From contig NW_014039728.1 in NCBI RefSeq assembly GCF_001186125.1, positions 1 through 39,545 on the forward strand: 39,545 nucleotides of DNA, read 5' to 3'. The DNA comes from Sphaeroforma arctica JP610 (lineage: Eukaryota). Both the position numbers and the translations under genes were made by a program. Under the pieces are notes generated by a model. That model saw nothing but the letters and a program-made list of their open reading frames with translations. It was not told the origin of the DNA and searched no databases. This document shows positions 6,012 through 39,159 of the stretch, one piece after another. How positions within the stretch are numbered: the stretch's first letter is position 1; every line of letters begins with the position of its first letter.

Positions 6012-6182
6012 ACTGTGAATTCGCCAGGAGTAGCAGAACGTTACATGTTCACCAGGAGTAGCAGATCACTGCAAATTCACCAGGAGTAGCAGATCACTGC
6101 AAATTCACCAGGAGTAGCAGATCACTGCAAATTCGCCATGAGTGGCAGATCACTGCAAATTTACCTGAAGTAGCAGATCACT
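6012..6182. repeat. 28-bp tandem repeat (ACTGCAAATTCACCAGGAGTAGCAGATC), ~6 copies, between the convergent MYSM1-like and TIM44 3' ends
   Basis: Head-to-tail units with no spacers. The outer copies are degenerate. Confidence 0.9.
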
Positions 6183-6228
6183 CAGGAATCTGCTCGGATT
6201 CTATTTTAGCAGGTATCGCTTTATTGAT

Positions 6229-18300: not shown

Positions 18301-19089
18301 AAATCGCCATACAGAACTTTACGTATGGAGGCTATGCAATTATTTATTACTCTATTTTTGAGATGAATCCTTCTAAGTTTTTTCCGAAATGGAAAACTAT
18401 AAGGGACAAGATAAAGGCATATCAAAGCTACATACTGTTATTGAGCCATCTGCATGTTAAACTTTACTGAGCACGAAAACTCTCACAAGAAGCCTGTCGC
18501 TGGTGAAAGCATACATTGAAATGTACCCAGAAAATCGTCGAAATCACGGATTGGCAATCAAATCAATATCATTGTCGAGAGTGATTATGACAAAGCTATA
18601 TTATAGAATTGAGCATTCCCAACGAATTAGTTTATCGGCTGCAAGGTCTGAACTGCATAAAAGTGGCGGTTCAATACTAAAACCCAAACGCTAACAATAG
18701 TTAATACACTGTGTATATTGAACCTGTAATGCCCATTATATGAACTTGTCAATTATTAAAATTACACCGATTGAGTATTTATTTAGTGAAACTAGTAAAT
18801 ATATAGTAAAGTAAAATTGAATAATATCTCTCATAATTAAATACTACTGCCCGAACTCAGCAATGAGAGAAAAAGCAGAGTAATTTAGGTTTTAGAGATA
18901 TCGTAAAAACTAGAGTAGAGTTCATAGTAGTATAAGTAGAAGAGTAGAACGAGTGGAAATAAGGTCTAGACCCTAAACTGGGTTTTCCGAAAGAGACAGA
19001 GATAAAAACCGTCACAGATGCCATAAACTAGGTTTGACGTATTCTTACGTGTTAGAGGAAGATGATGAAGATTGATCGCGCATCAACAT

Positions 19090-22000
19090 GTCACACGTGT
19101 CGGACGAGCTAGGCTTTTGGTAAGTACGTCGGCATGATTGTTCTGTGTGGATATGTAGTGTAAGTCAGTCATTCCTTGACGTACATAATCTCGGATGTAG
19201 TGATGTCTTATGTCGATGTGTTTTAAGTCCTGTGGGTGTGCCTGTACCGAGTGCGATTTTGATCACACTCTAGTTATCGATGTGTAGTTTGGTAGGGAGT
19301 GTGAGTGTGTACCCGAAAGTATGCATGATGTAACGGAGCCACGCGATAGCACGCGTAGTTTTGGAGCCTGCTATATATTCAGCCTTGCCAGAGCTGATAG
19401 AAACAGTCTTTTGTTTTTGTGACCTCCAATAAACTGGGGTGTGGTCAAAACATATGAGTGTGCCAGTGTGTGATTTGCGTATGATGGGGCACGATGCCCA
19501 GTCAGAATCATTGTAGGATAGAAGTGTAAAATCGATTGATTGAGAATGTGTCTGTGGTCTGTATGTGAGAGCGACTTCGATAGTGCCCGCAAGATATTGT
19601 AGAATGCGGAGTAGGGCTGTGTAGTGTTCCTTGAGTGGTTGGTTGCTGAATGTAGCCAGTTGGCTAAGGAAGCAGACGATATCTACGCGTGTCATGTTGG
19701 CAGCGTAGTTGACTGCACCAAGGAGGCTACGGTATTTGCCAGAGAAGGGAGGCCCAGTAAAAGTGTTAGGGTGCAGTGTGGTACCAGGTGTCGGTTTAAT
19801 GGGGAAGTCGCGTGCTTAAAAACATCGGGCATTCGTTTAATGTAAGCATCCTGAAGGAGGGAGATGGAACTGTCAGACCGATGAATGATGCGGAAGCCAA
19901 CTTCATGGCGGGCCAGGCCAAGATTGGTGAGGAGGTAGTGGTTAAGAATATCAAAAAGCCAGAGGACATCGGCGAGAGATCGGACAGCAGGAAGTATTTC
20001 GTCAACATATATAATTAAGGCGAAGCGACGAGAAGCGTGGATCCAAATACACTTATCCGCTGCAGACTGGGTAAAGACAGCAAGATTGAGCTTATCACCA
20101 ATGTCGTGATTCCAAATGCGGCCAGCTTGCTTCAGGCCATAGAGGCCTCGACGGAGCTTAAGGACGATATTAGGGTGGTAATTGCCAAGATCACATGACC
20201 CCTTTGAGGGTTGCATATACACCAGAGTGTCAAGTTTACCATATATGAAAGCAGACGTCACGTCGCAAGTGGTAAACCTGGAGGCTATGAAAGGCAGCGA
20301 TGGCGAAGAAGATACAGAAAGCGGCGGCGTGAGCGGCGGGTGCATAGGTTTCCGTATAACTGTCACCATGCTCCTGTTGGTCGCCCCTAGCGACCATCCA
20401 AGCTTTGTAGTGGGAGAGATTGCCGTGTTCGGCATGCTTCAAGGCAAAAACATACTTACTATGGATGATTTTGGTGGAGGGGGGTACGGACGTAATAGGG
20501 ACCACTTCAGCTATTTCATTTGTAGCATGATTCTGGTATCGATGGCAGCCTTCCAGGACGGCCAAGAAGAAGATTTACGGGCGGAGGCGATAGACTTGGC
20601 TACAGTAGGGTCGAAGAGTGTGGCAGCTTTGGTAAGCGTCATATCAGAGCGGTTACTGGGGGTGACATTCCGAACATACGGGGTAAAGTAACATGGGGTG
20701 GATGCATATAGCGTATGGCAGGCCTGGAGGAATCGAACACAAGCAAATGTAGAGTCAGGTTCGGGTGGATCGTGGATTGTGGTGGTGAGGGGGAAATAGT
20801 TCGTGGGATTGAGAACGTCCGGAAGCGAACTGGGAGGGGATGGAAGGGGACCAGGACATGAGGGTTGATTGTGGGTGTCCGAGGGATGAGGGGGGGGACA
20901 CAGGAGGTGGGGCAAATGGCAGCAAGGGTTGGGAGGGGGGTAGAGGCGACCTATAGGGTGGACCAGGGGTACCAGGAAGGTGGGTTGGCGGATATGAAGC
21001 GTAGCGTAAGGGGCTGGTTATAACACCACGGGAGGTAGGCAGAGTAGTTGGGGGTGAGGATACCGGAGTTGGTGGGGGGCGCGAAGAGTAGAGGGGCGTG
21101 GGTTGAGGGGAAGGGGAAGATGCGAGTGATACCAGGAGGGTGTCTATGGGAAGATATTCCCACAGTACCGAAGGGGGTGTTGAGAAGGGTATGGGAACAG
21201 GGAGGAGTTCCACAGGGAGTGTCTCTTGGAGTACAGGGGGAATAGGGGAGAAGGGGATAGCGGCCGGAACAGACTCGGAGGGGAAGTCGACCTGGTGGAA
21301 AGTAGGCGGGGACCGAATAGCTGTGGAATCAAGGGCAGGATGATGGGTCTCCTGTTTGATGTCGGGGGAAAGAGTCGCATGCTGGGTGGTGGAGGGGAGA
21401 AAGGGACTGAGGCAGGGACCGTTTCAATCGGCAAGTGTTCCTGCTTAATGAGATAAGGAGGAGGTGCGAACTCGGACGGTGATGCATGTGGTGTGTGGAA
21501 CACGGGATCCGGTGGTGGAGTGGAGGAAGTGGCAGGTGTTGACTGAGAAGAAAAGTGGGCGTCAGTAGGTTTCGGCTCAATATCGTTGAGAGGGGAAGAA
21601 GTACTGGGGCCAGGTGGGATAGAAGGGGAACCAGCAAAGGGGGTAGGGTCGGTTGCAGAGCAGTTGGCGGGTATATGATAACTAAACGGGTGGGTGGAGC
21701 GAGTAGCTGTCTTGCCATCTGGGGATCATTGTGAGTTTTTCTCGGGGTAGAACTGTAAGTCCTGGGTCTTCATCAACATCTGAATAGTCATATTTCGGAT
21801 GATATATCAGTGTGGGGTGGAGTTAGTGCTGAAGCCAAGAAGAACACCATGGCCGATGGCTGGGAGATACTTGGGATGTCGTTTCGCTGCAGGGCCATGG
21901 AGTTTGAAAGCAACGACGCAGCCGAAACGAGCTCTTGGGTTGCACTTGGGGTCAATCTGGAGGAATGTGTGGTATGGAGTTCGGAGTGTCTCATCCTGAG

Positions 22001-23090
22001 CAAGCTTAGTGTTGCGGATGTAGTCCGCGAAGGACTTAGCATAGCCCCAAAGTAAGAGGGGCATCCCAGTTTCCATAAGCAGGACAAGGACAAAGTTATT
22101 GAGCGAGTCGTGCGGGCGTTCAACTTTGGCGTTTTGTTTGAGGGGAGTAAGGAGGGTGTGCATGGAGTTCGATGCGGCGAGACGTGAGCATGGACTTGAC
22201 CTGTTGGCTATGGAATATAGGGTCATTGTCGGCGATGATCGTACTAACGACCCATCGAGAAGGGACGCGAGTGAGGAGATCGTCGACATTGTGATGCATA
22301 GAAGCTTGGTGTGGGAGAAGAGCGTTAAGACCGAAGCGTGATCCCGCATCGAACATATTGAATGCATATTCGTTGCCATCACGGTCAGGTTGTAAGGGGC
22401 CTTGAAGATCAATATTAAAACGTTCGCCAGGGCCATATGGTGTGTTTGTGCTGGTATGACTGATACTAGTAGCATGGATCTTGCCAGTAATACATGTGTT
22501 GCAGTGCTTAGGGAATTTTGTGTTGGCTTGAATGTAATCGATCGCAGTGCAAAAGTCAGCAGATGGGGATACGTGAGAATGTATCGGTCCGAGGATTGTG
22601 ACCAGGGTGTAGAGCCAGGTGGGCGCTATCCGACAGCAGTAGACTTATGCCGAAGAAATGTTGAAGTAGTATTCTGGATAATATATTGCTGAGTCTGCTT
22701 GTGTGCGAGAAATATGTCCCACCACGGTGCACAAGGACTTTTCGCTAGTCGAGAGCAATTCCAGAGCCGTCGGGGGCAACTTATCGGGGCAATTGGTGCG
22801 AGTGCTTGGATGCACATATCAATAGTGGGCGAGGAGTCAAGAGCACTCATAGAGGCAGCGAAAAGAGAAGGGTGGATCATCCAGTCTTCGTTACTGACGT
22901 GATGAGGAGGTGAAAACATGAGTGTAATGCTTTCTTGGCGAGCCATACGGATTGTGGTACATTTGCTACGGTGTCCTGAGGAACAGTGATATGCGTCATA
23001 CGTCATCATGTTATCGGGAGGTTCAGGGCGGTGGTCACCAAGTTTGATTGGTTGCTGGGGTGGGAACTGGCAGCCCGTGAAGTTTGCGTA
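19090..23090 (-). mobile_element. Ty1/Copia retrotransposon pol remnant (integrase - Pro-rich linker - RT - RNase H), frameshifted and 5'-truncated, with a methyltransferase-like insert in the integrase Zn finger
   Basis: Integrase: HCSSGH...CNTC, FNIDLQGP, FDAGSRF, IADND, PYSPQ/QNAKVER. RT: YKAWMVARGDQQ...YTETYAP, DVTSAFIYG, LYGLKQAGRIWN, IIYVDE. RNase H: YNDSDWAS...RKSHTG...WRSQKQKTV...AEYIA, KHIDIRHHYIRD, NHADVLTK. INT-RT-RH order is diagnostic of Copia. Confidence 0.93.
22580..22890 (-). pseudogene. Decayed Dam-like N6-adenine methyltransferase domain within the Copia integrase
   Basis: EDWMIHPSLF...SPTIDM, then after a frameshift ASKHSHQLPR*VAPDGSGIALD*RK; the NPPx segment is absent; then APWWDIF...TFLRHKSTAVG*RPPGSTPW/VTILGPI. 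Colinear with the Gypsy methyltransferase at 33855 and 27720. Confidence 0.7.
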
Positions 23091-23162
23091 TACACAGACT
23101 TACACGAATACACATATCGGCACGAACAAGTTGTAGATAGATAGTTACCAGATATACACAAA

Positions 23163-24036
23163 TGTAAAAATAGCGAGTTCTTAATAGTTGCACAGTTAAC
23201 GTATATTGTAAACGTATTAGCGTATTAGCGTTTATACTTATAATACTTGAATACGTTTAACGAATTGGACATGAACAAGAACTGAGAGTACTCAGTAGAG
23301 TATGGGACTCTACTGTGGACAATTAGGTGGCTTTCCAAATATAGATTGGTTTTTCCACTGAAATTAGAATTGTACGTAATATAGGAACGACACCAATCTG
23401 ACACCTGAAAATGACACTTTAGGAATCTCTAATTAATGGAAGTACCATGCGAGAGGGTCTCAGGCATGAAATGGTTGTTGGTACAAACCTATGGTATAAT
23501 TCGATAATGACCTCAGAGCAAGATAATCCACTGAGAAAAGGACAGGATCAGAGTTGTTAGAATTTAGGACAACATGGTTTTGATTCCTCCTAGCCAGCCA
23601 ACTAGATGTGCCCTCTATGCCTTAAATGGGATGGGGAGCTAGGTACCAAGTGATGGGGTTTAGGTGCAGATGTATACTGCACCAGCTTGGTGTTTTGATT
23701 TTATTTTTTATTTTCTTAAGTTGGACTTAGAGGTATTTTATTGGTTAGTTCGATTAGGTAATTGTTTCGAGGCGTGAAATGTAAACTATGCGTCCAATGA
23801 AATGATATCTAGTCTTAGTGACTAAAACATAAATAAATCTAGACCGAAGTATTGAGCGATTAGAGCGGAGCATATAGACAATAGTCTCAGTCTAAAATCT
23901 CCTAATCTTTTGCTCATTACCAAGGGCTGAAGCTAAACTGATTTAACATTTTGCATTTTAACGTATTAACGTATTGTCTTATTAACGTAAACGTCTTGGT
24001 ATCGTATAGTCAGCCTAGAGGTGACCGACTTTAACA
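23163..24036 (+). repeat. Gypsy-1 5' LTR (TGTAAAA...TTTAACA)
   Basis: Near-identical to 30095-30963 apart from a few block indels. TG...CA termini. Confidence 0.92.
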
Positions 24037-24067
24037 TATTTTTAAGTTTAAATACGCTATCGATATT

Positions 24068-26848
24068 ATGACGAAAGGGAAAAATAAGGCAGCGAATGTA
24101 GCCAAGGCTGCAAACGCGAAAAGGTTTATTGTAGGCGAAGAAAAGCAGAAAACACCCCCGGCACCATCAGTAGAAGCTGAAGCAACTGAGATCACGCCGG
24201 TACAACCGGCACCAACTCTGACTAAACGCAAACATAAGAAGTTGGTTGACTCGGGTGTAGGTGCATCCGGAGGTAATGTGACTACGGAGCCATAGAAGCC
24301 ACCAGCGAAGAAGGCGAAATCTCGAAAGGGAAAAGCCGAGAAAACGCAATGCTCGGAAAACTTCAGAGGAAGTGCGACATGCACTGAAATCAGATGTATC
24401 ATCCCCACCAGTGGACACGCGCACAGCACGTAGGCAAGATCCTACTTATCATATGATAGCAAGGGATAGGAGAACCTTTCTGAAGAACTACCAACCAATG
24501 GTACATGAATTGAGACCTACTAAGCAGCGAAAAAAAAGCAAGCCGCAGCGAAGGATCAAGGTCATGGTGAATCAGGGGAGGATGACTCGGAAGATGTGCC
24601 AATAGCACAAACACTGTTGGATCAACCCCAAATCAACGTAGCGGAGGAACAACTGCGTTTCATGGATATAGGTCCGGATGATGTGGACCATACACTTCAC
24701 CATCAGGACGACGATTCGGACACTATGTTGGATTCACAATTCCTGCGCTTACCAAAACACCACTCCGACCGGCTTGGCGACAGAACTTTGATATGGGCCA
24801 TCCATACCAGACTCAGATTGATATCCAAGGGGAGGGTCAACAAGAGTTTATCCGTCAGCGGGCCAACCGGGCATGGGTGTTTCGAAACACGTATGGAACG
24901 TACTTTCCGGATGTAATGAAGGCCAACCCGGATGGTACAATCTCACCGAGTTATGTAATGAATGCAGCAGTAAGAAATTTTGGGCTCGATTTGTTTAGAG
25001 ATTCTAAATACTATAATCGGCTAGTAGCAATGAAAACTGACGAAGGTAAGCAGGCACGCAAACTTTTTCGCCGGTTTCAAAAGATACTACCGAAGGTATT
25101 TGGAACTAGGAGAGATGGAAGTTTTGCACACTTAATTTGGTACGCAATTCGGTATCTTCTTGGAGACATTCCCGACTTGATATCAAACCATTTGGCACTC
25201 TATCAAGCCATATTGGCGTTTGAGATGTTGTCAGACAATGGAGAGGCAAACAGAATCCGATCTTCTTCATCCGAAGCTCAATCTTTTCCTGGATTGGACG
25301 CAACAGTAATGTCGCGAATGGCATCTGAACAGGAGCCTAAACCAAATCCGCCACCGGAAGTAAATCCACAGAATGCCCCAGAGGTGTTTCCGAAGGAAAA
25401 ACCGACCAAAGAGCCTAAACCTGATCAGGTGGAAGCTAGAAAACCTTTGTCGTCATCGGGAGACAGTTCGCCCCCAGCGGCTATCCCAACGACGACAAAA
25501 GATGCTGTTCCATCAGAAGCGTTCATTCACATTGAACAGGTCGATGGATCAAAGGATGAGGCGGACAACTGACTGCATGGTCAGATGCAGTTAGAAAAGA
25601 AGGGATCAGATCACTCTAGTAGTGATCTGAAAACTGCTGAATTCATTGTTCGAATGAACAAGGCTGAGGCTGCTTCACTCGAGGCGATGGATCTAGGTAG
25701 GATTGATGCCGCTAGTCTTTATATGACAATGGCTACGCACTTCCAGACTAAGATTTATTCAGAACTAAGAGTGATTGTGGAAGGCAAGAAGTTTGTAAAG
25801 GACATAAGTAAACTACCGACGACATAAAGATCTGATCGAAAGGACCGGAAGGATCCAATCGATACTAGCAGTCTGGCGTTGTTGTCTAGGTCTTTGAAAG
25901 AGTTTGGACAAATTATGCTTACAGCCAATCTACGGAAGAACTTATGGTTCGAAGTAGTGCAGCAGAGCTTTAAGCCGTCCACTTACAAGTACAACAAGTA
26001 AGAGAAGGCAAAACAAGAAATCACTAAGCTGAAAACGTGGAAAGAGCAGAGTGAGATGATCGTCCACTTATTTTCGACGGACGACCGGAATTGCTTGTAT
26101 CGATCATAATACCACCGGACGAAGGAACGCCGGTGTCCCACTACTTATTAGAGTTGGACACACACATGTCAAGGGCACACAATCAGGAGATGTCACCTGA
26201 CAAACTATCCATGTGTGTACTATGGGTGCAGACAATCTTCTGGTCAAACCTACATAGGAGAGATCAAGAGATTCTGTACGCTGATATGCATCAATCTTAC
26301 CCGGACAAGGTACGAGAGATATCCATTGAAGGACCTACCTACGGCATAATGAAGCTAGCGGACTTAACCTGGGCTGAATTTTACTCGAGAGCGGATCAGA
26401 CGTTTACCAAACTCCCTAGTTCCGCCGTGAAAGTCACTAATGCTCAGAGGAAGGTCGGCGGCAATCTTACCGGGGAATCAGGCAATGGTCGAGACTCTCA
26501 GTCCACTAATGGAGGTCAGAAGGTAAACAAAAGGGGTGACAAAGGTGGCAATAAGAACAAAATACAAATAGTTCTGAAGGCCACAAGAACAATGTCATCA
26601 TTAAGGGTAACCAGACCAACAGAAATGGACCGCCGGCAGGCAACCCTAAGCCCAGGCATAGGGAGGTCAAGAACTGTAGTGAGATCGATTGCAATTGGCG
26701 AATGACCCAACATGAGCCGAATGGCAGATGGACTGGAAGGCACGCAGACAAGTGCAAGCACTTTATCGAGAAGTGTGCCGACTGTACCGGGACTGGAGGT
26801 TACCACAAGCATACATGCAAAGTGCAACCAAAGGTTGAAGTTAAGTGA
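24068..26848 (+). pseudogene. Gypsy-1 long ORF1/gag (~900 codons, disrupted) with N-terminal extension and C-terminal Cys/His fingers
   Basis: Consecutive ORF fragments 24068, 24372, 24596, 24793, 25585 and 26091 lie between the LTR and the protease. The C-terminus is CSEIDC-X16-HADKC...CADC-X6-HKHTC followed by TGA at 26846. Confidence 0.65.
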
Positions 26849-27720
26849 CAAACATACCGGGTCTTGTCACTAAGACAAAAAGACGCACCTCAGGACGAGC
26901 GTGTAATCCTAGATATACGAGTTAACGGACATGAAATAAAAGCGTTGCTGAATCCGGGCTCGCAAATTTCATGTATATCCTCTAGATTTTGTAAAATGAC
27001 AGACGTAACTCGTAAGTCAGAGCCAACTATGTTGAAACTGGCTGATGAAAGAGAGATCACTTGCAGAGAAATGGCAATCGATCTTAGGTTTACATTGACA
27101 GACCAACGTACTATAGTTACTAAGGCAGTCATATGTAACACTTCACCAGACTATGATCTCATAGTAGATATGAGTGATTTATTGTCATTAGGTATCACAA
27201 TTACAGGCTTACCTACTAACATTGAACCACAGAAGGATCAGTCGGACGACAACTTGTTGAAATCGGTATATAAACCTTCGAAGACTGTGAAGGAGATGAT
27301 CCCTCACTTCACAGAGAAACTCAAAGAAGTGATTTTCGAGAACGACAAGATTCGGATCACTGACTGTGCTAAGTTCAAATTCAATAACGGATACGTTAGT
27401 CTAGACCTGACGAGAGTAGATTTCTCGAAGCTGAAGTGTCCTACACGTAACTATGTTGCATGGCGTCATGAGCAAGTCGTACGATAACAGGTTAAAGTAT
27501 GGTTAGATGACGGAGTGATCGCAGTCAACTACGAGCCGACTCCCGTCAACCTAGCGCTTTTAGCCGTCGACCAATTCAACTCTGACGGGACGCTGAAGAA
27601 AGTTCGGGTGTGTTTGGATATGAGCCCAATTAACGCTTTGGTACCGACACACAATTTTCACTTACCAAGGATAAACGAACTACTAAGGCTCATGGAGGGA
27701 GCTAAGATAATCTCCACTAT
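26849..27720 (+). pseudogene. Gypsy-1 aspartic protease and N-terminal RT fragment
   Basis: IRVNGHEIKALLNPGSQISCIS (catalytic D>N), DYDLIVDMSDL and KVRVCLDMSPINAL...LPRINELL...GAKIISTI. Internal stop at 27485. Confidence 0.88.
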
Positions 27721-29797
27721 CGCCATGGCTATTAATACCACAGTTGCTAAATCATGTAAATATTCAAGATGCTACCATCACGTTGTGTTGTCCCCTAAGA
27801 CACTCAGATAAATGGCTACCACGGTTGATCTCAATGATACAATGTGAGCCGATCTATGTGGATAGAGAGGTAGATACTTTTCTTTACCAGAGTACCCGTG
27901 CAGTCCAAAAGACGCCTTGGCGACATACTATAATATGCCGAATAGGTCCAGTTGGAACGACCAAGTGGACACCATCCGAGACTTTCAAACAGAAGGTTGA
28001 GGAATCCAAGATTCCACTCTTGAATCCTATGTCTCAATCAGAGACTGGGACAACACAAGCACCTGCAGTATGTGTGATACAGCCAAATTTAAAGGAATCA
28101 AAGAGGAGCGCAACACTAGCGAAAGCCTTCTACAAAAAGATACGGTCTGACAGGGAAACTGCATACCAAGCAGAAACTCGATTGCTTAAGCAATTGATGA
28201 ATGACTTTCCTGAGGTATATGATCATGTGACTCAACTAATGGATAGATCAAATATTAGTCGGATTCACGATGTAGAAGCTTTAGGCGAGATTGGGCAAGA
28301 CGGGTCTTCGAGTCCAGGTGATGACGCGGTGGAATCCTCATCTCCTGATTTCAATGTAACAAGTAGATCACAGGAGGCGATTCTGAAGTGGTTAAGACAA
28401 AATCATGCTCTTAAGCACATTGATAAGGTTAGAACCGAGAAAGATTGCAAGAGGTACGGAATCGTACTCCCGAACCTCAAGCAATATATATCTCAGGTGT
28501 ATCACGAATGTAACAACTGCGAAGTTAACCGAATCAAGCGCCACGGATACGCACCTTTACGCAGCATATCAGAAGACGAGCCGTGGCGCCGGGCTATCAT
28601 TGATTTGGTTGAGCTACCCACGTCCGAACACACGAAGGATAAATATGTTTGTCACGTGTTTGATGTCGCATCAAGATATAATGTATTGTATCCGCTGAAA
28701 GATAAATCGACACAAACTGTGGCTGAGGGTATATATAAGTGCTTCGCAGATTTCGGCTGGCCAGCTATAGTATGTTCCGACAACGGTAGTGAGTTTACAG
28801 GAGATGTCATGACGACACTGTTACTCGTTGCGGGATCATGCCATAAGATGGGTGTACCTTACAAGCCTCAGACACGAGGTGCAAACGAGGTACGACACAG
28901 AAAGATGAAGGAGTTCATGCAAGGAGCACTACTTGATGATGCTGACATGTGGCCATACTCAATCAATTGGGTACAGACACAGATGAACGAATCCCTTGAT
29001 TCAGTCACTGGCACAACACCCGCTCACTATTTCCGGGGCCGTTATAGTGAATTACAGATCCCCTTCAACAAGGAGTCTCAAGATGATCATGTGTTACCAT
29101 GGTTAGAGACGATGCGTCGGACCAGAGATGTGGTCTATCCTTGCTTAAGGGAGATGAAGGACATCGCTCTCAAGAAGAGACAAAAGCGATGTAATGATAC
29201 CAAGAAAATTGTCGAGTTTGAGGTAGGCGATATAGTCAACATTATGGCTCGCAACTCCGATACAACTGAGCTTACGGCTAAATATATTGGACCATTTATG
29301 ATCTCTGTGGCCGATGAGAAGAGCGGAACGTATGAAGTTAACAACGTTGACGGCTCTAGTGCCTTAAATATTTTTTTTGGTCACATCGAATCCCTACGAC
29401 AGATGTCGTCTTTCGTCGCACACGTGAAGCTACTACACCTCTTATGTCTTACGAGTTTGAGAAGATTCTCAGGAAGTACAAACATGAGGATATGACATAT
29501 TACACTACGGAGTTCGCCGATGGAGCACAGTATGATCTTCCACCATCAGCATTTGATGATCCGGATGTACTAAAGACATTTAATAAGAAGTTTCGCAAAC
29601 GTTTACACAAAAATAGGGCTGATGCAGAATCAATCTTACCATCGAATAAGCGACCCGAAGTGGTTAAGATCTATCCACAGACATCATACATTCCCAGCTT
29701 TAAAGAGCATGGAATGTACGTACCTCCAAAAGGCATTAAGAAACGTCCCATCCACCATCGGGGACCACAAGGACCAAGCCCAAACGTAATAGAGTAA
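27720..29797 (+). pseudogene. Gypsy-1 methyltransferase C-half + linker + integrase + chromodomain-like tail (frameshift near 29375)
   Basis: PWLLIPQLLNHV...ITLCCPLRHSDKWL...KTPW; HALKH...CNNC; IIDLVEL, CSDNGSEF, GANEVRH; YIGPF; tail YEFEKILRKYKHEDMTYYTTEFADG...LPPSAFDDPDVLKTF. Confidence 0.88.
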
Positions 29798-30094
29798 CCG
29801 AGTAACTTATAACGGCTAAGTAAACTTTGTCTAAGAGAATATGACAAGCATTGAGGCCGTTATATGATCGAACCCCGTTTCTTTCCTTTTCGCTTGTACA
29901 ATTCATGTGAGCTTTTTGAGTCTATGTGCTAATACCACGTATAAGCCAACATTGTAATTTTCAAGCTGAGCGGGGGGGGGGGGGGGGGGGGGGGGGCGTA
30001 TGTAAAAATAGTCGGGTTCCTAATAGTAGTTGCACAGTTAACGTATTTCTAAAAATGTATAAGCGNNNNNNNNNNNNNNNNNNNNGGGGGGCTA

Positions 30095-30963
30095 TGTAAA
30101 AATAGCGGGTTCCTAATAGTAGTTGCACAGTTAACGTATTTCTAAAAATGTATAAGCGTATAAACGTTTATACTTATAATACTGGAATACGTTTAACGAA
30201 TTGGACACGAACAAGAACTGAGAAATTCAAGATTCTGAACATGTGACAGTACTCAGTAGGGTATGGGACTCTACTGTGGACAATTAGGTGGCTTTCCAAA
30301 TATAGATTGGGTTTTCCACTGAAATTAGAATTGTACATAGTATAGGAACGACACCAATCTGACACCTGACTGGGAGTACCATGAGAGAGGGTCTCAGGCA
30401 TGAAATGGTTGTTGGTACAAACCTATGGTATAATTCGCTAATGATCAAGATAATCCACTGAGATAAGGATAGGATCAGAGTTGTTAGAATTTAGGACAAA
30501 ATGGGTTTGATTCCTCCTAGCCAGCCAACTAGATGTGCCCGTCTATGCCATAAATGGGATGGGGAGCTAGGTACCAAGTGATGGGGTTTAGGTGCAGATG
30601 TATACTGCACCAGCTTGGTGTTTTGATTTTATTTTTTATTTTCTTAAGTTGGACTTAGAGGTATTTTATTGGTTAGTTCGATTAGGTAATTGTTTCGAGG
30701 CGTGAAATGTAAACTATGCGTCCAATGAAATGATATCTAGTCTTAGTGACTAAAACATAAATAAATCTAGACCGAAGTAGTGAGTGATTAGAGCGAAGCA
30801 TATAGACAATAGTCTCAGTCTAAAATCTCCTAATCTTTTGCTCATTACCAAGGGCTGAAGCTAAACTGATTTAACATTTTGCATTTAACGTATTAACGTA
30901 TTGTCTTTTAAACGTAAACGTATTGGTATCGTATAGTCAGCCTAGAAACGACCGACTTTTACA
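30095..30963 (+). repeat. Gypsy-1 3' LTR (TGTAAAA...TTTTACA), preceded by a G-run polypurine tract; its start is duplicated at 30001-30065 across an N gap
   Basis: Matches the 5' LTR. G25 at 29972-29996 and GGGGGG at 30086-30091. Confidence 0.92.
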
Positions 30964-31670
30964 CATACACATACACATCGGCGTACAACAGGTATAGTTA
31001 GATGGTTTCCATACATATACATCGGCATACACAAGTATAGTTAGATAGTCAAGAGAGTAAGACTAAGCACGGGTAATTCTGGTGCAAATTGGGGGTTTAA
31101 CATCATATGGCCGTGAAATTGGTACAGCGAACAGACACCTAACATTTGCGGCATACAAAGGTATAGTTAGATGGTTTCCATACATATACATCGGCATACA
31201 CAAGTATAGTTAGATAGTCAAGAGAGTAAGACCAAGCACGGGTAATTCTGGCGCAAATTGGGGGTTTAACATCATATGGCCGTGAAATTGGTACAGCGAA
31301 CAGACACCTAACATTTGCTACACATGTGACACTAAGAATATACAAGCAAATGGTGTCATTATTATCATTATATCATCCTATATCACAATAGTAAACAGCT
31401 ACCACACATACAACACTACAGGCATATACACAACACATACACTAGGCATATACAGGCCAACGGTGTCATGCAAGGTAATATCATCCCATATCACACAATA
31501 GTAAGCAGCTACTACACATACAACACTGTAGGCATATTAATAACGCTATCCCTATCAGTGTCAGCTGCATCTGAATGAGATGCATAAAAGGATACATCAG
31601 AACCAAATACACTACACTTACAACTAGGCATATACCAGCAAACGGTGTCATGCAAGGTATTATCATCCCG
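30964..31670. repeat. Complex satellite-like repeats: ~170-bp duplication (30990-31149 / 31160-31318) plus a second degenerate repeat (~31340-31670)
   Basis: Direct repeats visible. The same CATCGGCA..CAAG..TAG.TAGAT unit occurs left of Gypsy-1 at ~23105-23160. Confidence 0.8.
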
Positions 31671-33854
31671 TTTGCTTGAAGAAGTGCCAGACGTCAGATG
31701 ATAAACCTCATCAGACGCGTCCTAACCAGACACGTGCTCGCGACTCCACTCAATCCACTCGACCCAATAAACGGGCACGCGCGGAGGCGAAGGACAAGGA
31801 ATCTTCATTTAAGGAGATTTAGAAATGTGCCGACGCACAGTGCGGGTATGACATTTACCAATTGACCCCTAACGGTTATTGGAATGGCAGACATGCACTC
31901 ACCTGTTCACACTTTCTTACTAAGTGCGAAAAAAGCCCGACATTAAGTTGGAGTGAAAGTACTACCAGGTACAATCGTTACAAAGGAAATACAACGACTC
32001 TTTAGACGAGCGTGTAATAATACCTGTATATTGCAATGGAAATAAAGTCCTTGCATTGATTGATCCTGGTTCAGAAATTTCATGTATATCCGACCGCTTT
32101 GCATTAATGAAAGACATTGAAAGGCGAACTCAAACTTCTCACCTAATCTTAGCAGATGACAAAACTTCTAAGTGTGATACCATGGCCACAGATGTTAAAA
32201 TCTCCCTGGCCGATGATAGAAATATCACTACTCGAGCTGTGATAGTTCAGATGTCATAGAAGTACGACTTAATAGTCGGAATGAGTGTTTTACTCACTCT
32301 AGGTATAACCGTAACTGGTTTACCAAATAACATAGATCCATTAAAGGATCAATCAGATGATAACTGTCTGAAACCATATAAGCCCCTGTCAGACACAGTC
32401 AAGGCATTGATACCTGACTTTGCGGACAAAATCATGGATCTGATTTTAGTAAATAAGAAGATAAAGATCACAGATTGGGCAAAATTCCGCTTTAACGACG
32501 GATATGTCAGCCTTGACTTAACCAAGGTAGACTTTACTAAGATCAAGTGCCCTTCAAGAAACTATGTTTCTTGGAGACACGAAGCTGTAGTTAAAGAACA
32601 AGTTGAGAAATGGTTATCCGATGGGGTAATCGAAATCAATTACCAACAAACGCTAGCTAATTTAGCATTATTGGCAGTTGATCAACACAATTCTGACGGA
32701 ACATTTAAGAAAGTCAGAGTATGTCTAGATATGGGTCCAAAAAATAAGATATTGCCGACTCATAGTTTCCATCTCCCTCGTATAAACGAGTTACTGAGAC
32801 GAATGGAAGGTGCTACGGTGTTTACATCCATAGACCTAACACAGGGGTATCATCAAATGCAAATTTATGAACCCCATCGTAAGCACTTTAGTTTTACCTG
32901 GAAAGGTAAACAATACAGGTTCAGAGGTGCACCTTTCGGGTTGCACACCTTACCAGCATCCTTCCAACAAGTAATAGAGGAAATGTTTGCAGACATGCCT
33001 AACGTGCAAGTTTATATAGATGAAATAGTCGTCTTTTCTAAGACTAAAGGCGAACATGCCGCATTAGTCAGGCGAGTCCTTCAGAGACTCAGTGAACAAA
33101 ACTTCAATATAAACGAGAAGAAATGTCACTTCGCCATGAGCGAAATACAGCTCTTAGGCTACCGAATATCTGGGGAAGGTATTAAACTCGACCCCGGCAA
33201 GGTAGAACACCTGTTAGATTGGCGAACACCAACTACAGGAAGAGATGTTAACAGCATGTGTGAGGTTGTAAACTTCTTTTAAGATGGAGTACCACACTTG
33301 GCTGATTACCTTAAACCTTTTGGACACTTAAGATGTCATAAAGGCAAACTAGGAGACTTGTGAACTAAAGAGTGTGATGACACATTTAAAGCGCTCAAAC
33401 ACGAAGTCCAGCAAGCCCCTGTTGTACAAGGACCAGTCGATGGCGTGCCGTTTGAAATAGCAACGGACGCCTCCGACTTAGCCTTGAGAGGAGTATTATA
33501 TCAGGTTATAGATAACAAGCCTAGATATATACAATTATTTAGTCGAGCAATGAATGCTTCACAGTTGAATTATCCAACTGTTAAACAATAGCTATTAGCC
33601 ATAGTGGCAGCTCTAACACACTTCCGAGATTACTTATACGGAACAGCATTTACGCTGATGTGTGTGATCAGAAATCTCTTCAATATATGAAAGAGATGAA
33701 ACCCGACTCACAATTACTGAGTCGCTGGCATGATACAATATCAAAGTTTCATTTTGATATAATACATCTGCCAGGAATACATAACCATTTACCGGATATG
33801 TTATCACGCTTCGTACCGGACTTTAATAAATCCGTACGTGAGTTACTAACCACT

Positions 33855-34200
33855 GACTGGAAATGTAATCCCAGGTGGTTTGAACTGGCACAAAAGATAT
33901 TTGGGCCACATACCATAGATATGTTTGCTGCACATCATAATGCACAACTATCGAATTACAGGACTTTAAATCATCCTTTGGGAGACGCTTTTCAAATAGA
34001 CCTCTCCAAACATAATGCGTGGGCTAATCCACCATGGCAGTTAATTGCCCAGCTATTAAATTATGTTTGTATACATAAAGCTACCATCACGTTGTGTAGC
34101 CCATTACGGAGAAAAGATCCATGGCTCAATAAATTAATAAGCATCATACTATAGTATGTATAATATGTCGTATAGGTCCCATTGGAACAACCAAATGGAC
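33855..34200 (+). pseudogene. Phage-Dam/DIRS-type DNA N6-adenine methyltransferase-like domain, in frame with RNase H in the Gypsy-2 pol
   Basis: TDWKCNPRWFELAQKIFGPHTIDMFAAHHNAQLSNY...GDAFQIDLSKHNAWANPPWQLI...ITLCSPLRRKDPWL. DMFA (SAM-binding motif I-like) at 33918-33929 and NPPW (amino-MTase motif IV) at 34026-34037. Confidence 0.85.
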
Positions 34201-36571
34201 CCCTTCTGAGGCCTTTCTTAACAAGGTCAAAGAATCAGAGATTCCACTCTCGACTAAATTGAACGTTAAGCAGTTCAAAGGCAACACAGCACTTGAAGTC
34301 TGTGCATAAGAAATACAACCTACTAATGACACTACAGTTAAGAAGCGTCAGTCTCTAGCTAGGACTCTATTTAATAACATAAAGTCCAAGCCCGAGGTCT
34401 TTCAACCCCAATTTTTAAAGGGATTAATGAAAGATAATCCTGAAGCATATACACATACAATGCGACTATTAAATAAGTCAAGTGTATCAAACGCACACGA
34501 GCGCACTTATGACACTCATGCGAAAGTAGGACAGGAGGCTGGAAACACTACAGACTTAGAGACCACGCAAGTGGATTCTCAACACCCTACCTTTATTCTG
34601 GAGGAGCAGAATGATAAAAACATTCTTGCTTGGCTGACGTAAAATCATATGCTGAAGCACCAGAACGTAGTAGACGCACTTGAAGATGCTAAGCGAAATG
34701 GGATCGCGCACCATAAGCTGGCAACTTTAGTTGACAGAGTATATCAGTCATGTACAGACTGTGATATCAACCAGATTTAGCGCTTTGAGTTCGCACCGCC
34801 TAAGAGTGTGACTGAAGATGTTTCAGGCGCAGGGTCATCATTGATCTGGTTGACCTGCCTACGTCCGATCACAGTATAACTTGCTCTATCCTTTAAAGGA
34901 CAAGAGTACGCAGACCGTGGCAGAATTATGTTGCCAAGTCTTTGCTGACCACGGGTGGCCAGGTATAATGTGCACTGATAACGGTAGCGAGTTCTGCGAT
35001 GACGTAATGGAATCGTTAGTACTCGTATCAGGCATGTGCCATAAAAGGGGTGTACCATATAAACCGCAAACACAAGGCGCGAATGAAACGCGCCATAGAA
35101 GACCTAAGTTCTTCTTACGTACTGTATTAACGGATGATGCAGATGATTGGCCGTACCACCTTAAGTGGGTACAAACACAGATGACCGAGTGTGCTGATCT
35201 GGTTACAGGTACAACACCCACTCACTATTTTCGTGGCAGATATAGTGAGTTACAGATACCTTTTAACAAGGACGAGCCTAATCACCATGAGTTACCATGG
35301 CTAGAGAAGGTACAACGTATTTATAACGTTGTATATCCTTGCTTGTGAGAAACACGCAATATTGCCTTTTTGAAAAGGCAAAATAGATGGAATGCTACCA
35401 AAAAGATAGCAGAGTATCAGGTTGGAGACAGAGTTAACATCCGTTAACGTAATTCCGATGCTACTGTATTAAAATCTAAATGGATAGGACCATATATAAT
35501 CTTTGTAGCTGACGTTAAAAGTGGTACCAATGTTGATAATAACCCCGACGGTTCCAGCGCTTTAAATATAGGCACTAGTCGGATTCCGACTACCGAGATT
35601 ATTCTCGCAAGAAGACATGACTCTAATGCCCCTCTGGATCGTTCTGGATTTAAAGACATTATATGGAGAACGGATAATGGAGGATATACATACTATCATA
35701 CACGCTTTATAGTCGGTACAATCACTGAGTTGACTCCAGATGNNNNNNNNNNNNNNNNNNNNNNNNNNNNNNNNNNNNNNNNNNNNNNNNNNNNNNNNNN
35801 NNNNNNNNNNNNNNNNNNNNNNNNNNNNNNNNNNNNNNNNNNNNNNNNNNNNNNNNNNNNNNNNNNNNNNNNNNNNNNNNNNNNNNNNNNNNNNNNNNNN
35901 NNNNNNNNNNNNNNNNNNNNNNNNNNNNNNNNNNNNNNNNNNNNNNNNNNNNNNNNNNNNNNNNNNNNNNNNNNNNNNNNNNNNNNNNNNNNNNNNNNNN
36001 NNNNNNNNNNNNNNNNNNNNNNNNNNNNNNNNNNNNNNNNNNNNNNNNNNNNNNNNNNNNNNNNNNNNNNNNNNNNNNNNNNNNNNNNNNNNNNNNNNNN
36101 NNNNNNNNNNNNNNNNNNNNNNNNNNNNNNNNNNNNNNNNNNNNNNNNNNNNNNNNNNNNNNNNNNNNNNNNNNNNNNNNNNNNNNNNNNNNNNNNNNNN
36201 NNNNNNNNNNNNNNNNNNNNNNNNNNNNNNNNNNNNNNNNNNNNNNNNNNNNNNNNNNNNNNNNNNNNNNNNNNNNNNNNNNNNNNNNNNNNNNNNNNNN
36301 NNNNNNNNNNNNNNNNNNNNNNNNNNNNNNNNNNNNNNNNNNNNNNNNNNNNNNNNNNNNNNNNNNNNNNNNNNNNNNNNNNNNNNNNNNNNNNNNNNNN
36401 NNNNNNNNNNNNNNNNNNNNNNNNNNNNNNNNNNNNNNNNNNCCTGAGAAACATTAACTATATGTTATGCTACTTAATGTTTTCGACACGTTTTTCCTTT
36501 CTCGCTTTTTGACCCATAATCAGCTTGAGTGAGCAACTTGCTTCTCCTGGGTCTCAACGCTGGGTGGGGGC

Positions 36572-37337: not shown

Positions 37338-39159
37338 ATGATTGGTTCAAAATTTGAATCTATAGATTTACCAATCAATATAGTTCAAAAAATATATTTT
37401 AGTGGTTGAAAATTTGGATCTATAGATATGCCAATCAATATAGAATTGAAAACTAAGTTTATTGGTTAATAATTTAGATCCGTTGTACGATGACGAATAC
37501 ACAGTATATTCTTGATTCTGATTGGTTATTAGGAAACTGTCTGTTGTTTTGGCTAGTACAGTCACTGCAGTGTGTAGCACTTCACTTTCAGACTGTGGGG
37601 AAATTTGAGGTGGGTCACCAATTAGATTGGATAATTAATTTGCTACACAACACAAAAAACAATATATTTTGTCCTGTTTTGTCTTTGACAATAAAAAACA
37701 AATAATTGAAAAAACAAGGGTATGTAAAACACTAATAATGCTTGTCAAGGACAAATAAACTAGAGTAGGGTTCATAGTAGTAGGAGCAGAAGAGTAGAAC
37801 GAGTAGAAATAAGGTCTAAAACCCATTGTGCTGAACGAGCCCAATTTTTATATATAAGGAAATACTCTAAATGTACATGGCTTACATGGGATAGTCCCTA
37901 ATGTACATACAGATTTACGTGTACGTATTCCTTTCTCAGCCTTATTTCAAATAAAATTTAAAAAGCATAGCCTTTTAAATTATACAAGCCAAGGCACCCT
38001 TTGCGGGACTGGATTTTTTGGTTCCGGTACCGGCTAAAAAAATTGATGACGCGAATTTCAAAACTTGCTACTTGGTTAAATTGTTACCACCACACAAACA
38101 TACAATAAAGAAGGTCAATTTGGACAACAATATTCGTTTATTAGTGTGGCCTGTACTCGTTGCGTGGCCACGTGTTACCAACCTGTGCCTTAGAAATACA
38201 GTGTTAATCGGTCGCTAACGCAGCCACTATCACATCATATGCAACTCGTGCCAAGGGATCGAGGAGGGCCCGCGCGATGCTTTCTACTATTTCAATCTTC
38301 GATGCTAGAGCAAGTTCCAATTGAATGCAGTATCGTCTAGCATCATCCATGCTTAGTCCCAAGACACTTCCCAGGCCAACCTTCTGAAGAGCAGCAAGCA
38401 GAGTGCAACGCTGCCTCGACTGATTCACAGTACCACCAAGTGGCGCCTCCAGTCCATATACCGCTGTTCTCCGATGTAAACATCGTCCCCTCCGAGCAGG
38501 TAAGAGAGGTAGGCTGCCTTTTTTCTTTGCTAGTTTTGACCATACTAAGGATAAATACGGTGGCTGCGTGTTTTCTACTAAGCAGCATAGACATTTTTTA
38601 CAGGCAATGTTATCCTCGCAGGGTATAAGTGCTGTGAGCGATGGTGTGTATATGCGTAGTAAATTTTGTGTCGTTTATTATGTATACTGGGTATTTTCAA
38701 AGGTTAAAAATTTGTAAAATTTGAGGACTAATTAAAAACAACATTAAAGAGTCATTCTGATTGGATAACGAACAAGCATGGTGAGTTTTCGACACTTGAC
38801 ATCTGATGTTTTTTTGTTTTGTGTTCGAATGAATATACACAAAAAACACAAAATGACAAGAGTATACAAAAAAAATTAAAAATTACAAATATAACTAAAT
38901 TTGTACTACGTAGTATGTATATGTACTAGTTTTAGACTTATTTAGTACTTAAGAAGTAGTGAGAGAGTTTCAAGGGTAGTGAGTACGTCGGGTCTACATA
39001 TACTATATGATGTGGCAATTAGAGAGAGGGATGAGAATGCAGGCGGGTCAATATCGAATGCACGATCGGATGGTGGTGGTGGTGCGCTTGGAGAGAGGGA
39101 TGAGAATGGGGGTGGTGCATCACGATCGAATGCACGATCGAATGCAGATGTAGCTCTCA

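What the first reader, a model, noticed from the sequence alone, without database searches (positions are those of the whole stretch)
22490..22990. Homologous methyltransferase-like domain inserted inside the HHCC zinc finger of a Copia integrase
Seen (minus strand): the His pair YHCSSGH (22988-22971) and the Cys pair HCNTC (22503-22492) of the Copia integrase Zn finger are ~470 nt apart, instead of the usual few dozen codons. The interval reads EDWMIHPSLFAASMSALDSSPTIDM, then after a frameshift at 22814 ASKHSHQLPR*VAPDGSGIALD*RK, then APWWDIF...TFLRHKSTAVG*RPPGSTPW/VTILGPI. This is colinear with the Gypsy MT (TDWKCNPRWF...PHTIDMFAAHHNAQLSNY...; DKWL...TFLYQSTRAVQKTPWRHTIICRIGPV). Restoring two T's gives IDMFASKHSHQLPR. 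The NPPx segment is missing in this copy. Inference: an independent capture fused an MTase into the integrase itself, so it would travel with the pre-integration complex. I do not know of this architecture in described Copia elements.
Basis: partly seen in the sequence, partly recalled or inferred. Interest (0 to 1): 0.9.

Follow-up and report, generated by a model that had tools for sequence, protein, structure and literature searches.

The report
Methyltransferase inside Copia integrase zinc finger
A broken Copia-type jumping gene, likely from the single-celled animal relative Sphaeroforma, carries the remains of an adenine-methyltransferase-like domain between what are likely the two halves of its integrase zinc finger; a sister copy keeps this stretch in one open reading frame, so the enzyme would likely ride with the integrase and might mark the element's own new DNA copies, which is untested.

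Summary
Real, and not a passive fragment. The window copy is dead: three frameshifts, two stops and a ~38-codon deletion that removes the catalytic motif. A sister protein, SARC_09551 of Sphaeroforma arctica (P0003), reads protease-like region, HRSEGH, Dam domain (DLFA...NPIW), CRVC in one open frame. The His-to-Cys gap is 194 residues against 17-34 normally. It matches the window copy at 101 of 189 residues (z 46). Contig ends show two more diverged copies with the domain's C-half. The domain hits Pfam Dam (E 1e-5, just under the cut-off) and is only ~28% identical to Gypsy Dam domains like those next door, so it is a separate, old transfer into Copia; the donor is unresolved. A 2026 preprint describes Dam in Gypsy elements of this species but never mentions Copia. 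Not shown: a full-length intact element, re-formation of the zinc site (His half weak alone, p~0.03; models low-confidence), or catalysis (NPIW departs from NPPW; the preprint's assays of related domains were negative). Verdict: new variant of DAM-LTR elements, first in Copia and inside the integrase by my searches.

The parts
22971..22988 (-). His pair HCSSGH, likely the N-half of the integrase HHCC zinc finger (HRSEGH, H155/H160, in P0003)
   Evidence: aligns to the His columns of canonical Copia integrases; weak alone (69 of 2000 shuffles score as well)
22890..22970 (-). 26-27 codon spacer of ordinary zinc-finger length; in P0003 it ends in CEA where the Cys pair would normally begin
22748..22889 (-). 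Dam-like domain, N-half: conserved W, D-x-F-A-x-x-H-N-type motif broken by a frameshift at about 22814, stop at 22783-22781
22740..22747 (-). Site of a ~38-codon deletion plus frameshift; removes the catalytic motif (NPIW in P0003), the next helix and the TLAIVVPL strand
   Evidence: a sister contig carries the strand at this junction (loose end read by hand)
22531..22739 (-). Dam-like domain, C-half with terminal helix; stop at 22628-22626 and frameshift at about 22624
   Evidence: 25 of 37 and 19 of 31 residues identical to P0003; colinear with Gypsy Dam
22492..22503 (-). Cys pair CNTC followed by xxGK, C-half of the HHCC zinc finger
   Evidence: 26.4 bits to a profile of 15 canonical Copia zinc fingers
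21807..22410 (-). Integrase catalytic core (DLQGP 22410, ADND 22233, likely E at 22121) and start of the C-terminal region, with a frameshift near 22130
   Evidence: Pfam rve E 4.6e-5
19068..20574 (-). Copia reverse transcriptase (RVT_2) and RNase H-like region, frameshifted
23048..23162 (.). Unrelated repeat that cuts off the Copia 5' part (no gag or protease match in the window)
   Evidence: matches another contig at about 91%; homology to P0003 stops at 23027
23163..30966 (+). Neighbouring Gypsy element 1 with LTRs (about 23163-24037 and 30095-30966, 89% alike); only the C-half of its Dam domain is left (from 27723). Context, not part of the Copia
33849..34240 (+). Dam domain of neighbouring Gypsy element 2 (DMFA...NPPW), between RNase H and integrase. 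Comparator
   Evidence: Pfam Dam E 6e-6

Best explanation
This is a dead copy of a Copia family, likely from Sphaeroforma arctica, whose pol gene carries a Dam-like adenine-methyltransferase domain in frame between a His pair and the Cys pair that likely form the integrase zinc finger; the domain would likely stay part of the mature integrase, sit on the new cDNA and likely add 6mA to it. Shown: the order protease-like region, His pair, Dam domain, Cys pair in one open frame (P0003); Dam remnant, integrase core, RVT_2 in the window; conservation of the domain between diverged copies. Inferred: the domain's two ends lie close enough for the four ligands to meet, so the zinc finger closes around a looped-out enzyme; the protease does not cut it out, because that would sever the finger; the enzyme reaches cDNA or the RNA-DNA intermediate in the particle and pre-integration complex. 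Borrowed and untested: the mark is then kept by host AMT1 and helps the new insertion stay transcribed, as the 2026 preprint proposes for Gypsy DAM-LTRs. I put the architecture at about 0.9, the distant His pair as true zinc ligands at about 0.6, and catalysis at about 0.45.
For: The Atlas model of residues 186-345 matches eukaryotic Dam and RT-linked Dam-like models at TM 0.78-0.88 in 10 of 10 rows. hhalign to a Gypsy Dam profile: 97%, E 7e-11, 148 columns. The Dam parts are as conserved between P0003 and the window copy (10/23, 25/37, 19/31) as the His half (21/40) and Cys tail (11/25), which fits selection on the domain. A canonical Copia zinc-finger profile lands in two pieces on P0003: positions 2-42 on 150-189 and 34-57 on 349-372. 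Residues 54-160 match a protease-to-His-pair profile in order (10 of 1000 shuffles as high). Two further copies show the C-half in 4 of 4 and 3 of 4 runs; one links it to the integrase core with a 12-nt, frame-keeping difference. NPIW keeps the Asn, first Pro and aromatic residue that contact the adenine (PMC3814359 passages). Ty1 integrase with its HHCC domain binds cDNA to form the pre-integration complex (PMC8487063 passages).
Against: No full-length intact element was found: P0003 leaves Copia homology about 15 residues after the Cys pair and has no integrase core, and three homolog searches plus one profile-library search gave no other protein with the insert. The catalytic motif is seen in one copy only and is NPIW, not (D/N/S)PP(Y/F/W). 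The His half is weak alone (53 and 69 of 2000 shuffles; 87 and 56 of 1000 in wider windows), and HRSEGH/HCSSGH departs from the usual HxRLGH. Both copies have another His 24 residues before the Cys pair that could serve instead. The preprint's Dam domains from DIRS, DAM-LTR and an adintovirus gave no 6mA in E. coli. Pfam Dam score is 25.5 against a cut-off of 28.1.
Confidence: 0.45

Rival explanations
1. Same fusion, but the domain is catalytically eroded and is kept as a nucleic-acid or adenine/6mA-binding module on the integrase, for example to hold cDNA or to steer integration.
For: NPIW in the only copy with the motif; a Cys in place of Asn in one intact Gypsy protein (ACPPW, P0002); negative heterologous assays; eroded motif IV marks non-catalytic subunits in other families; the C-half is the best conserved part. 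A Copia-borne methyl-CpG reader exists as precedent (PMC6673714).
Against: Asn, first Pro and Trp are kept, as is the D-L-F-A cofactor-side motif; Gypsy DAM-LTRs of this species carry more 6mA than other LTRs.
Confidence: 0.27
2. The insertion broke the original zinc finger at its Cys pair and the site was rebuilt locally: the His 24 residues before the downstream CxxC supplies a ligand, and the distant His pair is partly or wholly vestigial or is cleaved off. The methyltransferase would then sit in front of a remodelled integrase N-terminus, not inside a closed finger.
For: In P0003 the spacer after the His pair ends in CEAW exactly where CxxC belongs (26 residues), and profile positions 34-42 occur on both sides of the domain, like a short duplication. 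H331 is kept at -24 in both copies and is absent from the Gypsy domains.
Against: Both His of the distant pair, and the Gly before the second, are kept in two copies that differ at about half their residues. No His lies five residues before H331. The window copy has NEDW, not CEAW.
Confidence: 0.2
3. A passive Dam fragment landed in a Copia element and spread only by later duplication, with no function.
For: Every copy seen is broken or partial; only one species; no expression evidence.
Against: About 160 codons stay open in P0003 at about 45% protein divergence from the window copy; the domain is as conserved as the flanking integrase parts; in nine codons read by hand from a sister contig end, 4 of 5 changed codons are synonymous.
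Confidence: 0.08

Closest known systems
Ichthyosporean DAM-LTR retrotransposons (Fernandez-Moreno et al., bioRxiv 10.64898/2026.05.21.726589; whole main text read, figures and supplements not seen)
   Same: LTR retrotransposon with a PF05869-type Dam domain in pol, same host lineage (S. arctica named); the window's two Gypsy elements fit this description.
   Different: Those are Ty3/Gypsy-like, classified on RVT_1; 'Copia', 'Ty1', 'RVT_2' and 'zinc' occur 0 times in the main text. In the Gypsy proteins seen here (P0001, P0002) the domain lies between RNase H and an intact integrase; in this element it lies within the integrase N-terminus of an RVT_2 element, at about 28% identity.
MT (Dam-like) domain of DIRS tyrosine-recombinase retrotransposons
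   Same: Same fold: nearest Atlas models are eukaryotic Dam and RVT_1/RNase H-linked proteins; the preprint names DIRS as the source of the LTR captures.
   Different: DIRS have no DDE integrase. No DIRS sequence was in hand, so descent from DIRS was not tested.
CopiaMBD of centipedes and spiders (PMC6673714; first part of Results and passages read)
   Same: A Copia family that added a DNA-methylation-related domain to pol and keeps it under purifying selection.
   Different: A 5mC reader of host origin, not an adenine-methyltransferase fold; the text I read does not place it inside the zinc finger.
Canonical Ty1/Copia integrase N-terminal HHCC domain (PF13976 region; PMC8487063 passages)
   Same: His pair after the protease linker, CxxC-x-x-GK tail, DDE core, integrase before RT.
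   Different: 194 residues between second His and first Cys; PF13976 does not hit P0003 at E 0.1.
Phage PF05869 / PHROG 111 N6-adenine methyltransferases
   Same: W...D-x-x-A...DW...N-P-x-aromatic motif order; 24-32% identity over about 100 residues.
   Different: Stand-alone genes; similarity ends before the C-terminal third that the Copia and Gypsy domains share.

Membership tests
Ty1/Copia (Pseudoviridae) | Integrase upstream of reverse transcriptase and RNase H | tested here: met
   rve at 22410-22120, RVT_2 at 20574-19830, RNase H-like to 19068 on the minus strand
Ty1/Copia (Pseudoviridae) | RVT_2-type reverse transcriptase | tested here: met
   PF07727 E 2e-16 and 1.5e-8, both above the curated cut-off
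Ty1/Copia (Pseudoviridae) | Gag and protease upstream of integrase; paired LTRs, PBS, PPT | tested here: inconclusive
   5' part absent from the window; P0003 has a protease-like region (10 of 1000 shuffles); no LTR pair found
Integrase HHCC zinc finger | H-x4-H and C-x2-C ligands present | tested here: met
   both pairs in both copies
Integrase HHCC zinc finger | His-to-Cys spacing of about 17-34 residues | tested here: not met
   194 in P0003
Integrase HHCC zinc finger | Four ligands meet at one zinc ion | tested here: inconclusive
Dam-like N6-adenine methyltransferase (PF05869) | Profile and fold match | tested here: met
   Pfam E 1.2e-5 but 25.5 bits against cut-off 28.1; TM 0.78-0.88 to Dam-type models
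Dam-like N6-adenine methyltransferase (PF05869) | Motif IV (D/N/S)PP(Y/F/W) | tested here: inconclusive
   NPIW in P0003 (3 of 4 positions); deleted in the window copy; not visible in the other copies
Dam-like N6-adenine methyltransferase (PF05869) | Methylates adenine | not testable with these tools
   no assay; related domains were negative in E. coli
DAM-LTR as defined in the 2026 preprint | LTR retrotransposon with a Dam domain in pol | tested here: met
DAM-LTR as defined in the 2026 preprint | Ty3/Gypsy-like RVT_1 reverse transcriptase and organisation | tested here: not met
   RVT_2 and Copia order
DAM-LTR as defined in the 2026 preprint | Dam domain inside the eukaryotic retrotransposon Dam clade | tested here: inconclusive
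   sides with 3 Gypsy rows against 4 phage rows (100/99) but on a long branch, and with no DIRS rows
DAM-LTR as defined in the 2026 preprint | Insertions enriched for 6mA and transcription | not testable with these tools
   no methylation data; no RNA holder listed

The most novel reading that the evidence does not exclude
A Copia lineage captured a DNA adenine methyltransferase into the middle of its integrase zinc finger, so that zinc binding clamps the enzyme onto the integrase for good: a single-chain integrase-methyltransferase that writes 6mA on its own cDNA, or on target DNA, at the moment of integration. It would be the first Copia Dam element and the first integrase with a whole enzyme inside its HHCC motif.
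Probability: 0.3. Interest if true: 0.85.

Novelty: new variant of a known kind. Interest (0 to 1): 0.66.

Why it matters
It extends Dam capture to the second major LTR superfamily, in a species where Gypsy elements did the same, which strengthens the case that 6mA-marked genomes select for it and shows that an RVT_1-based survey misses a class. The position matters for mechanism: for Gypsy DAM-LTRs it is unknown which mature protein carries the domain, whereas here it could not be cut away without splitting the zinc finger, so it points to the integrase-cDNA complex as the place of action. That gives a concrete construct for the assay that failed with free domains. It would also show that the HHCC domain, one of the most length-constrained parts of retroelement integrases, tolerates a 160-residue insertion.

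Tried and rejected
No whole genome is held for this window, so copies could not be collected directly. Plain tblastn of the Gypsy domain misses the insert (best E 4.2), and the N-half is not significant against one Gypsy sequence. Word-index homolog searches: integrase ORF, longer proteins, 0 of 212 candidates (it also missed P0003, so it is insensitive); Gypsy Dam, 2 of 109; P0003 region, only itself among 261. No related loci in viral contigs (0 of 1 and 0 of 98 pattern matches) or metagenome contigs (0 of 66, 0 of 87). AlphaFold2 models were too poor to use (mean pLDDT 30.7 and 38.9); Foldseek with the second gave 0 matches at E 0.001 in PDB and BFVD; the wide VIA search and the complex prediction for the two zinc-finger halves were not available, so the zinc site stays open. 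PDB sequence searches found nothing useful. Atlas feature search: no hit for the whole unit, 0.78-0.79 (lead only) for the domain. One search compared two alignments that share members and is circular; disregarded. No RNA holder listed, which says nothing about expression. ApT and CpG content do not set the Copia apart. Rejected: assembly artefact; recent copy of the neighbouring Gypsy domain (28-30% protein identity, no DNA match); the 67-nt repeat 18907/37757 as an LTR pair (too short, no support). The shared C-terminal helix as proof of a Gypsy donor was dropped because the Atlas matches to other eukaryotic Dam models also reach residue 342-345.

Full report
Observation. On the minus strand the window reads HCSSGH at 22988-22971 and CNTC at 22503-22492, 467 nt apart. 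Downstream come an integrase core (Pfam rve E 4.6e-5), RVT_2 (E 2e-16 and 1.5e-8) and an RNase H-like region: Copia order. Upstream, the element is cut at about 23047 by another repeat and a Gypsy element with LTRs. A second Gypsy element holds a Dam domain (Pfam E 6e-6). Contigs from 3 of 4 public runs span 21800-23150 in one piece without a difference, so the breaks are real, though those runs may be the source strain.

Is the insert homologous to the Gypsy domain? By single-sequence tests, only half convincingly. A frameshift-aware alignment gave z 0.56 for the N-half and z 4.1 for the C-half (60 codon shuffles). Two intact Gypsy pol proteins (P0001, P0002; unnamed source) gave z 5.8 and 4.3, again from the C-half.

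The sister copy settles it. A phmmer search of 1.84 billion representatives with the ORF at 22644-22120 gave 40 hits; the best, P0003, is SARC_09551 of Sphaeroforma arctica JP610 and the second, P0004, is SARC_06079. I infer from this that the window is S. arctica or a close relative. P0003 reads, in one frame of 394 residues: a protease-like region (10 of 1000 shuffles as high against a profile of 6 Copia proteins), HRSEGH at 155-160, a Dam domain from W190 with DLFA at 211 and NPIW at 250, and CRVC-x-x-GK at 355. It hits Pfam Dam at E 1.2e-5, 25.5 bits against a cut-off of 28.1, and PHROG 111 at E 0.002; none of the 9 other hits that I scanned (10 of 40 scanned) has Dam. It aligns to a 4-sequence Gypsy Dam profile over 148 columns (97%, E 7e-11, 28% identity). 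The Atlas's own model of residues 186-345 matches eukaryotic Dam and RT-linked models at TM 0.78-0.88 in 10 of 10 rows. The window copy aligns to P0003 at 101 of 189 residues, z 45.8 for the domain alone, with frameshifts at about 22814, 22746 and 22624, two stops and a deletion of about 38 codons that takes out motif IV.

More copies. In one search a 1.76-kb contig (4 of 4 runs) matches both the domain's C-end and the integrase core, with 219 letters between against 231, a frame-keeping difference; its loose end reads by hand LRHGSTAVG, with 4 of 5 changed codons synonymous. A 1.4-1.55-kb contig (3 of 4 runs) matches at 22700-22735 and its loose ends read TLAIVVPL and QKEPYIIQN, so it keeps the strand deleted in the window. 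Both differ from P0003, giving at least four copies with the domain. Motif IV is out of reach in these two. About twenty further contigs under 90% alike lie on the RT region. The family looks old and diverged. Segment identities between P0003 and the window copy are 21/40 (His half), 10/23, 25/37 and 19/31 (Dam) and 11/25 (Cys tail): the domain is not decaying faster than its flanks.

Is it inside the zinc finger? The second His lies 194 residues before the first Cys; 27 of the 38 other integrase hits show the pattern with 17-34 (the pattern was capped at 45). A profile from 15 canonical Copia fingers lands in two pieces on P0003, positions 2-42 on 150-189 and 34-57 on 349-372, and MAFFT puts H155, H160 and C187 in the canonical columns. 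Against this, the His half alone is weak (53 and 69 of 2000 shuffles), Pfam's gag_pre-integrs does not hit it, and both copies keep a His 24 residues before the Cys pair. The spacer in P0003 ends in CEAW just where CxxC belongs, so the insertion may have hit the old Cys pair and left a short duplication.

Origin. The domain is 28-30% identical to the Gypsy domains (60-62 bits for the two full-length ones) and 24-32% to four phage enzymes over a shorter stretch (38-50 bits); a small tree joins it with Gypsy on a long branch, without DIRS rows. It keeps a DW motif seen in the phage enzymes and absent from the Gypsy ones. A separate transfer into Copia is certain from the element type; the donor is open.

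Mechanism. In Ty1 the protease releases integrase, whose N-terminal HHCC domain aids multimerisation, and integrase binds cDNA to form the pre-integration complex (PMC8487063 passages). If the finger closes around the insert, the domain cannot be cut away and is held at the cDNA. Amino-methyltransferases use the Asp/Asn, the first Pro's carbonyl and the aromatic residue of motif IV (PMC3814359 and PMC7544214 passages); NPIW keeps these three but breaks the consensus. I commit to a cis-acting 6mA writer on the integrase (0.45), ahead of a non-catalytic binding module (0.27), a locally rebuilt zinc site with the enzyme in front (0.2) and a passive fragment (0.08).

What is known. The preprint 10.64898/2026.05.21.726589 (whole main text read) reports Dam domains in Ty3/Gypsy-like elements, including an ichthyosporean lineage in S. 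arctica, with more 6mA and expression than other LTRs, no activity in E. coli, and a model in which Dam marks reverse-transcribed DNA for upkeep by AMT1. It classifies on RVT_1 and has 0 mentions of Copia, Ty1, RVT_2 or zinc. Nine full-text searches (listings seen, five further papers not opened beyond passages) showed no Copia Dam element and no domain inside an integrase HHCC motif; subscription papers and Repbase are not covered. CopiaMBD (PMC6673714, part of Results read) is the nearest Copia precedent; PMC6338049 passages do not mention Copia. This scan's earlier notes hold no Copia adenine-methyltransferase finding, but several unchecked ones on cytosine-methyltransferase-like domains between Copia protease and integrase and on eroded Dam domains in Gypsy elements.

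Verdict. Observation confirmed; interpretation partly supported; a new variant of a recently described kind. The architecture rests on one open-frame sister protein that itself lacks the integrase core, one dead copy that links the domain to Copia RT, and two partial contigs, all likely from one species. Interest 0.66.

Noticed in passing
window 27721-27723: Gypsy element 1 has a clean internal deletion of about 400 codons (residues 296-695 of P0002): most of RT, all of RNase H and the N-half of its Dam domain, yet both LTRs and the integrase remain.
   Followed up: partly
P0002 residues 633-790: An intact 1400-residue Gypsy pol has ACPPW in place of ANPPW in its Dam domain; motif IV varies even in open Gypsy copies.
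   Followed up: no
P0003 residues 181-190 and 349-358: Both sides of the insert resemble the approach to the Cys pair (TPSKYVQCEAW and NPEFPKNCRVC), like a short duplication at the capture site; the Trp of CEAW is the first conserved residue of the Dam domain.
   Followed up: partly
window 23048-23162 and 30967-31700: The sequence flanking Gypsy 1 on both sides is a further repeat with internal 160-190 nt duplications; no clean target-site duplication was seen.
   Followed up: partly
window 19050-22400: Many diverged Copia relatives lie in the same runs: 19 of 23, 19 of 22, 17 of 20 and 3 of 11 laid contigs are under 90% alike; whether all carry the Dam domain is unknown.
   Followed up: partly
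P0010 residues 886-933: An unrelated Copia-type protein (RVT_2) among the hits carries a chromodomain between integrase and RT (Pfam Chromo E 8e-10).
   Followed up: no
window 18907-18973 and 37757-37823: A 67-nt direct repeat, 90% alike, 18.9 kb apart; unexplained.
   Followed up: partly
window 6012-6207: A 28-nt tandem repeat of about seven units.
   Followed up: no
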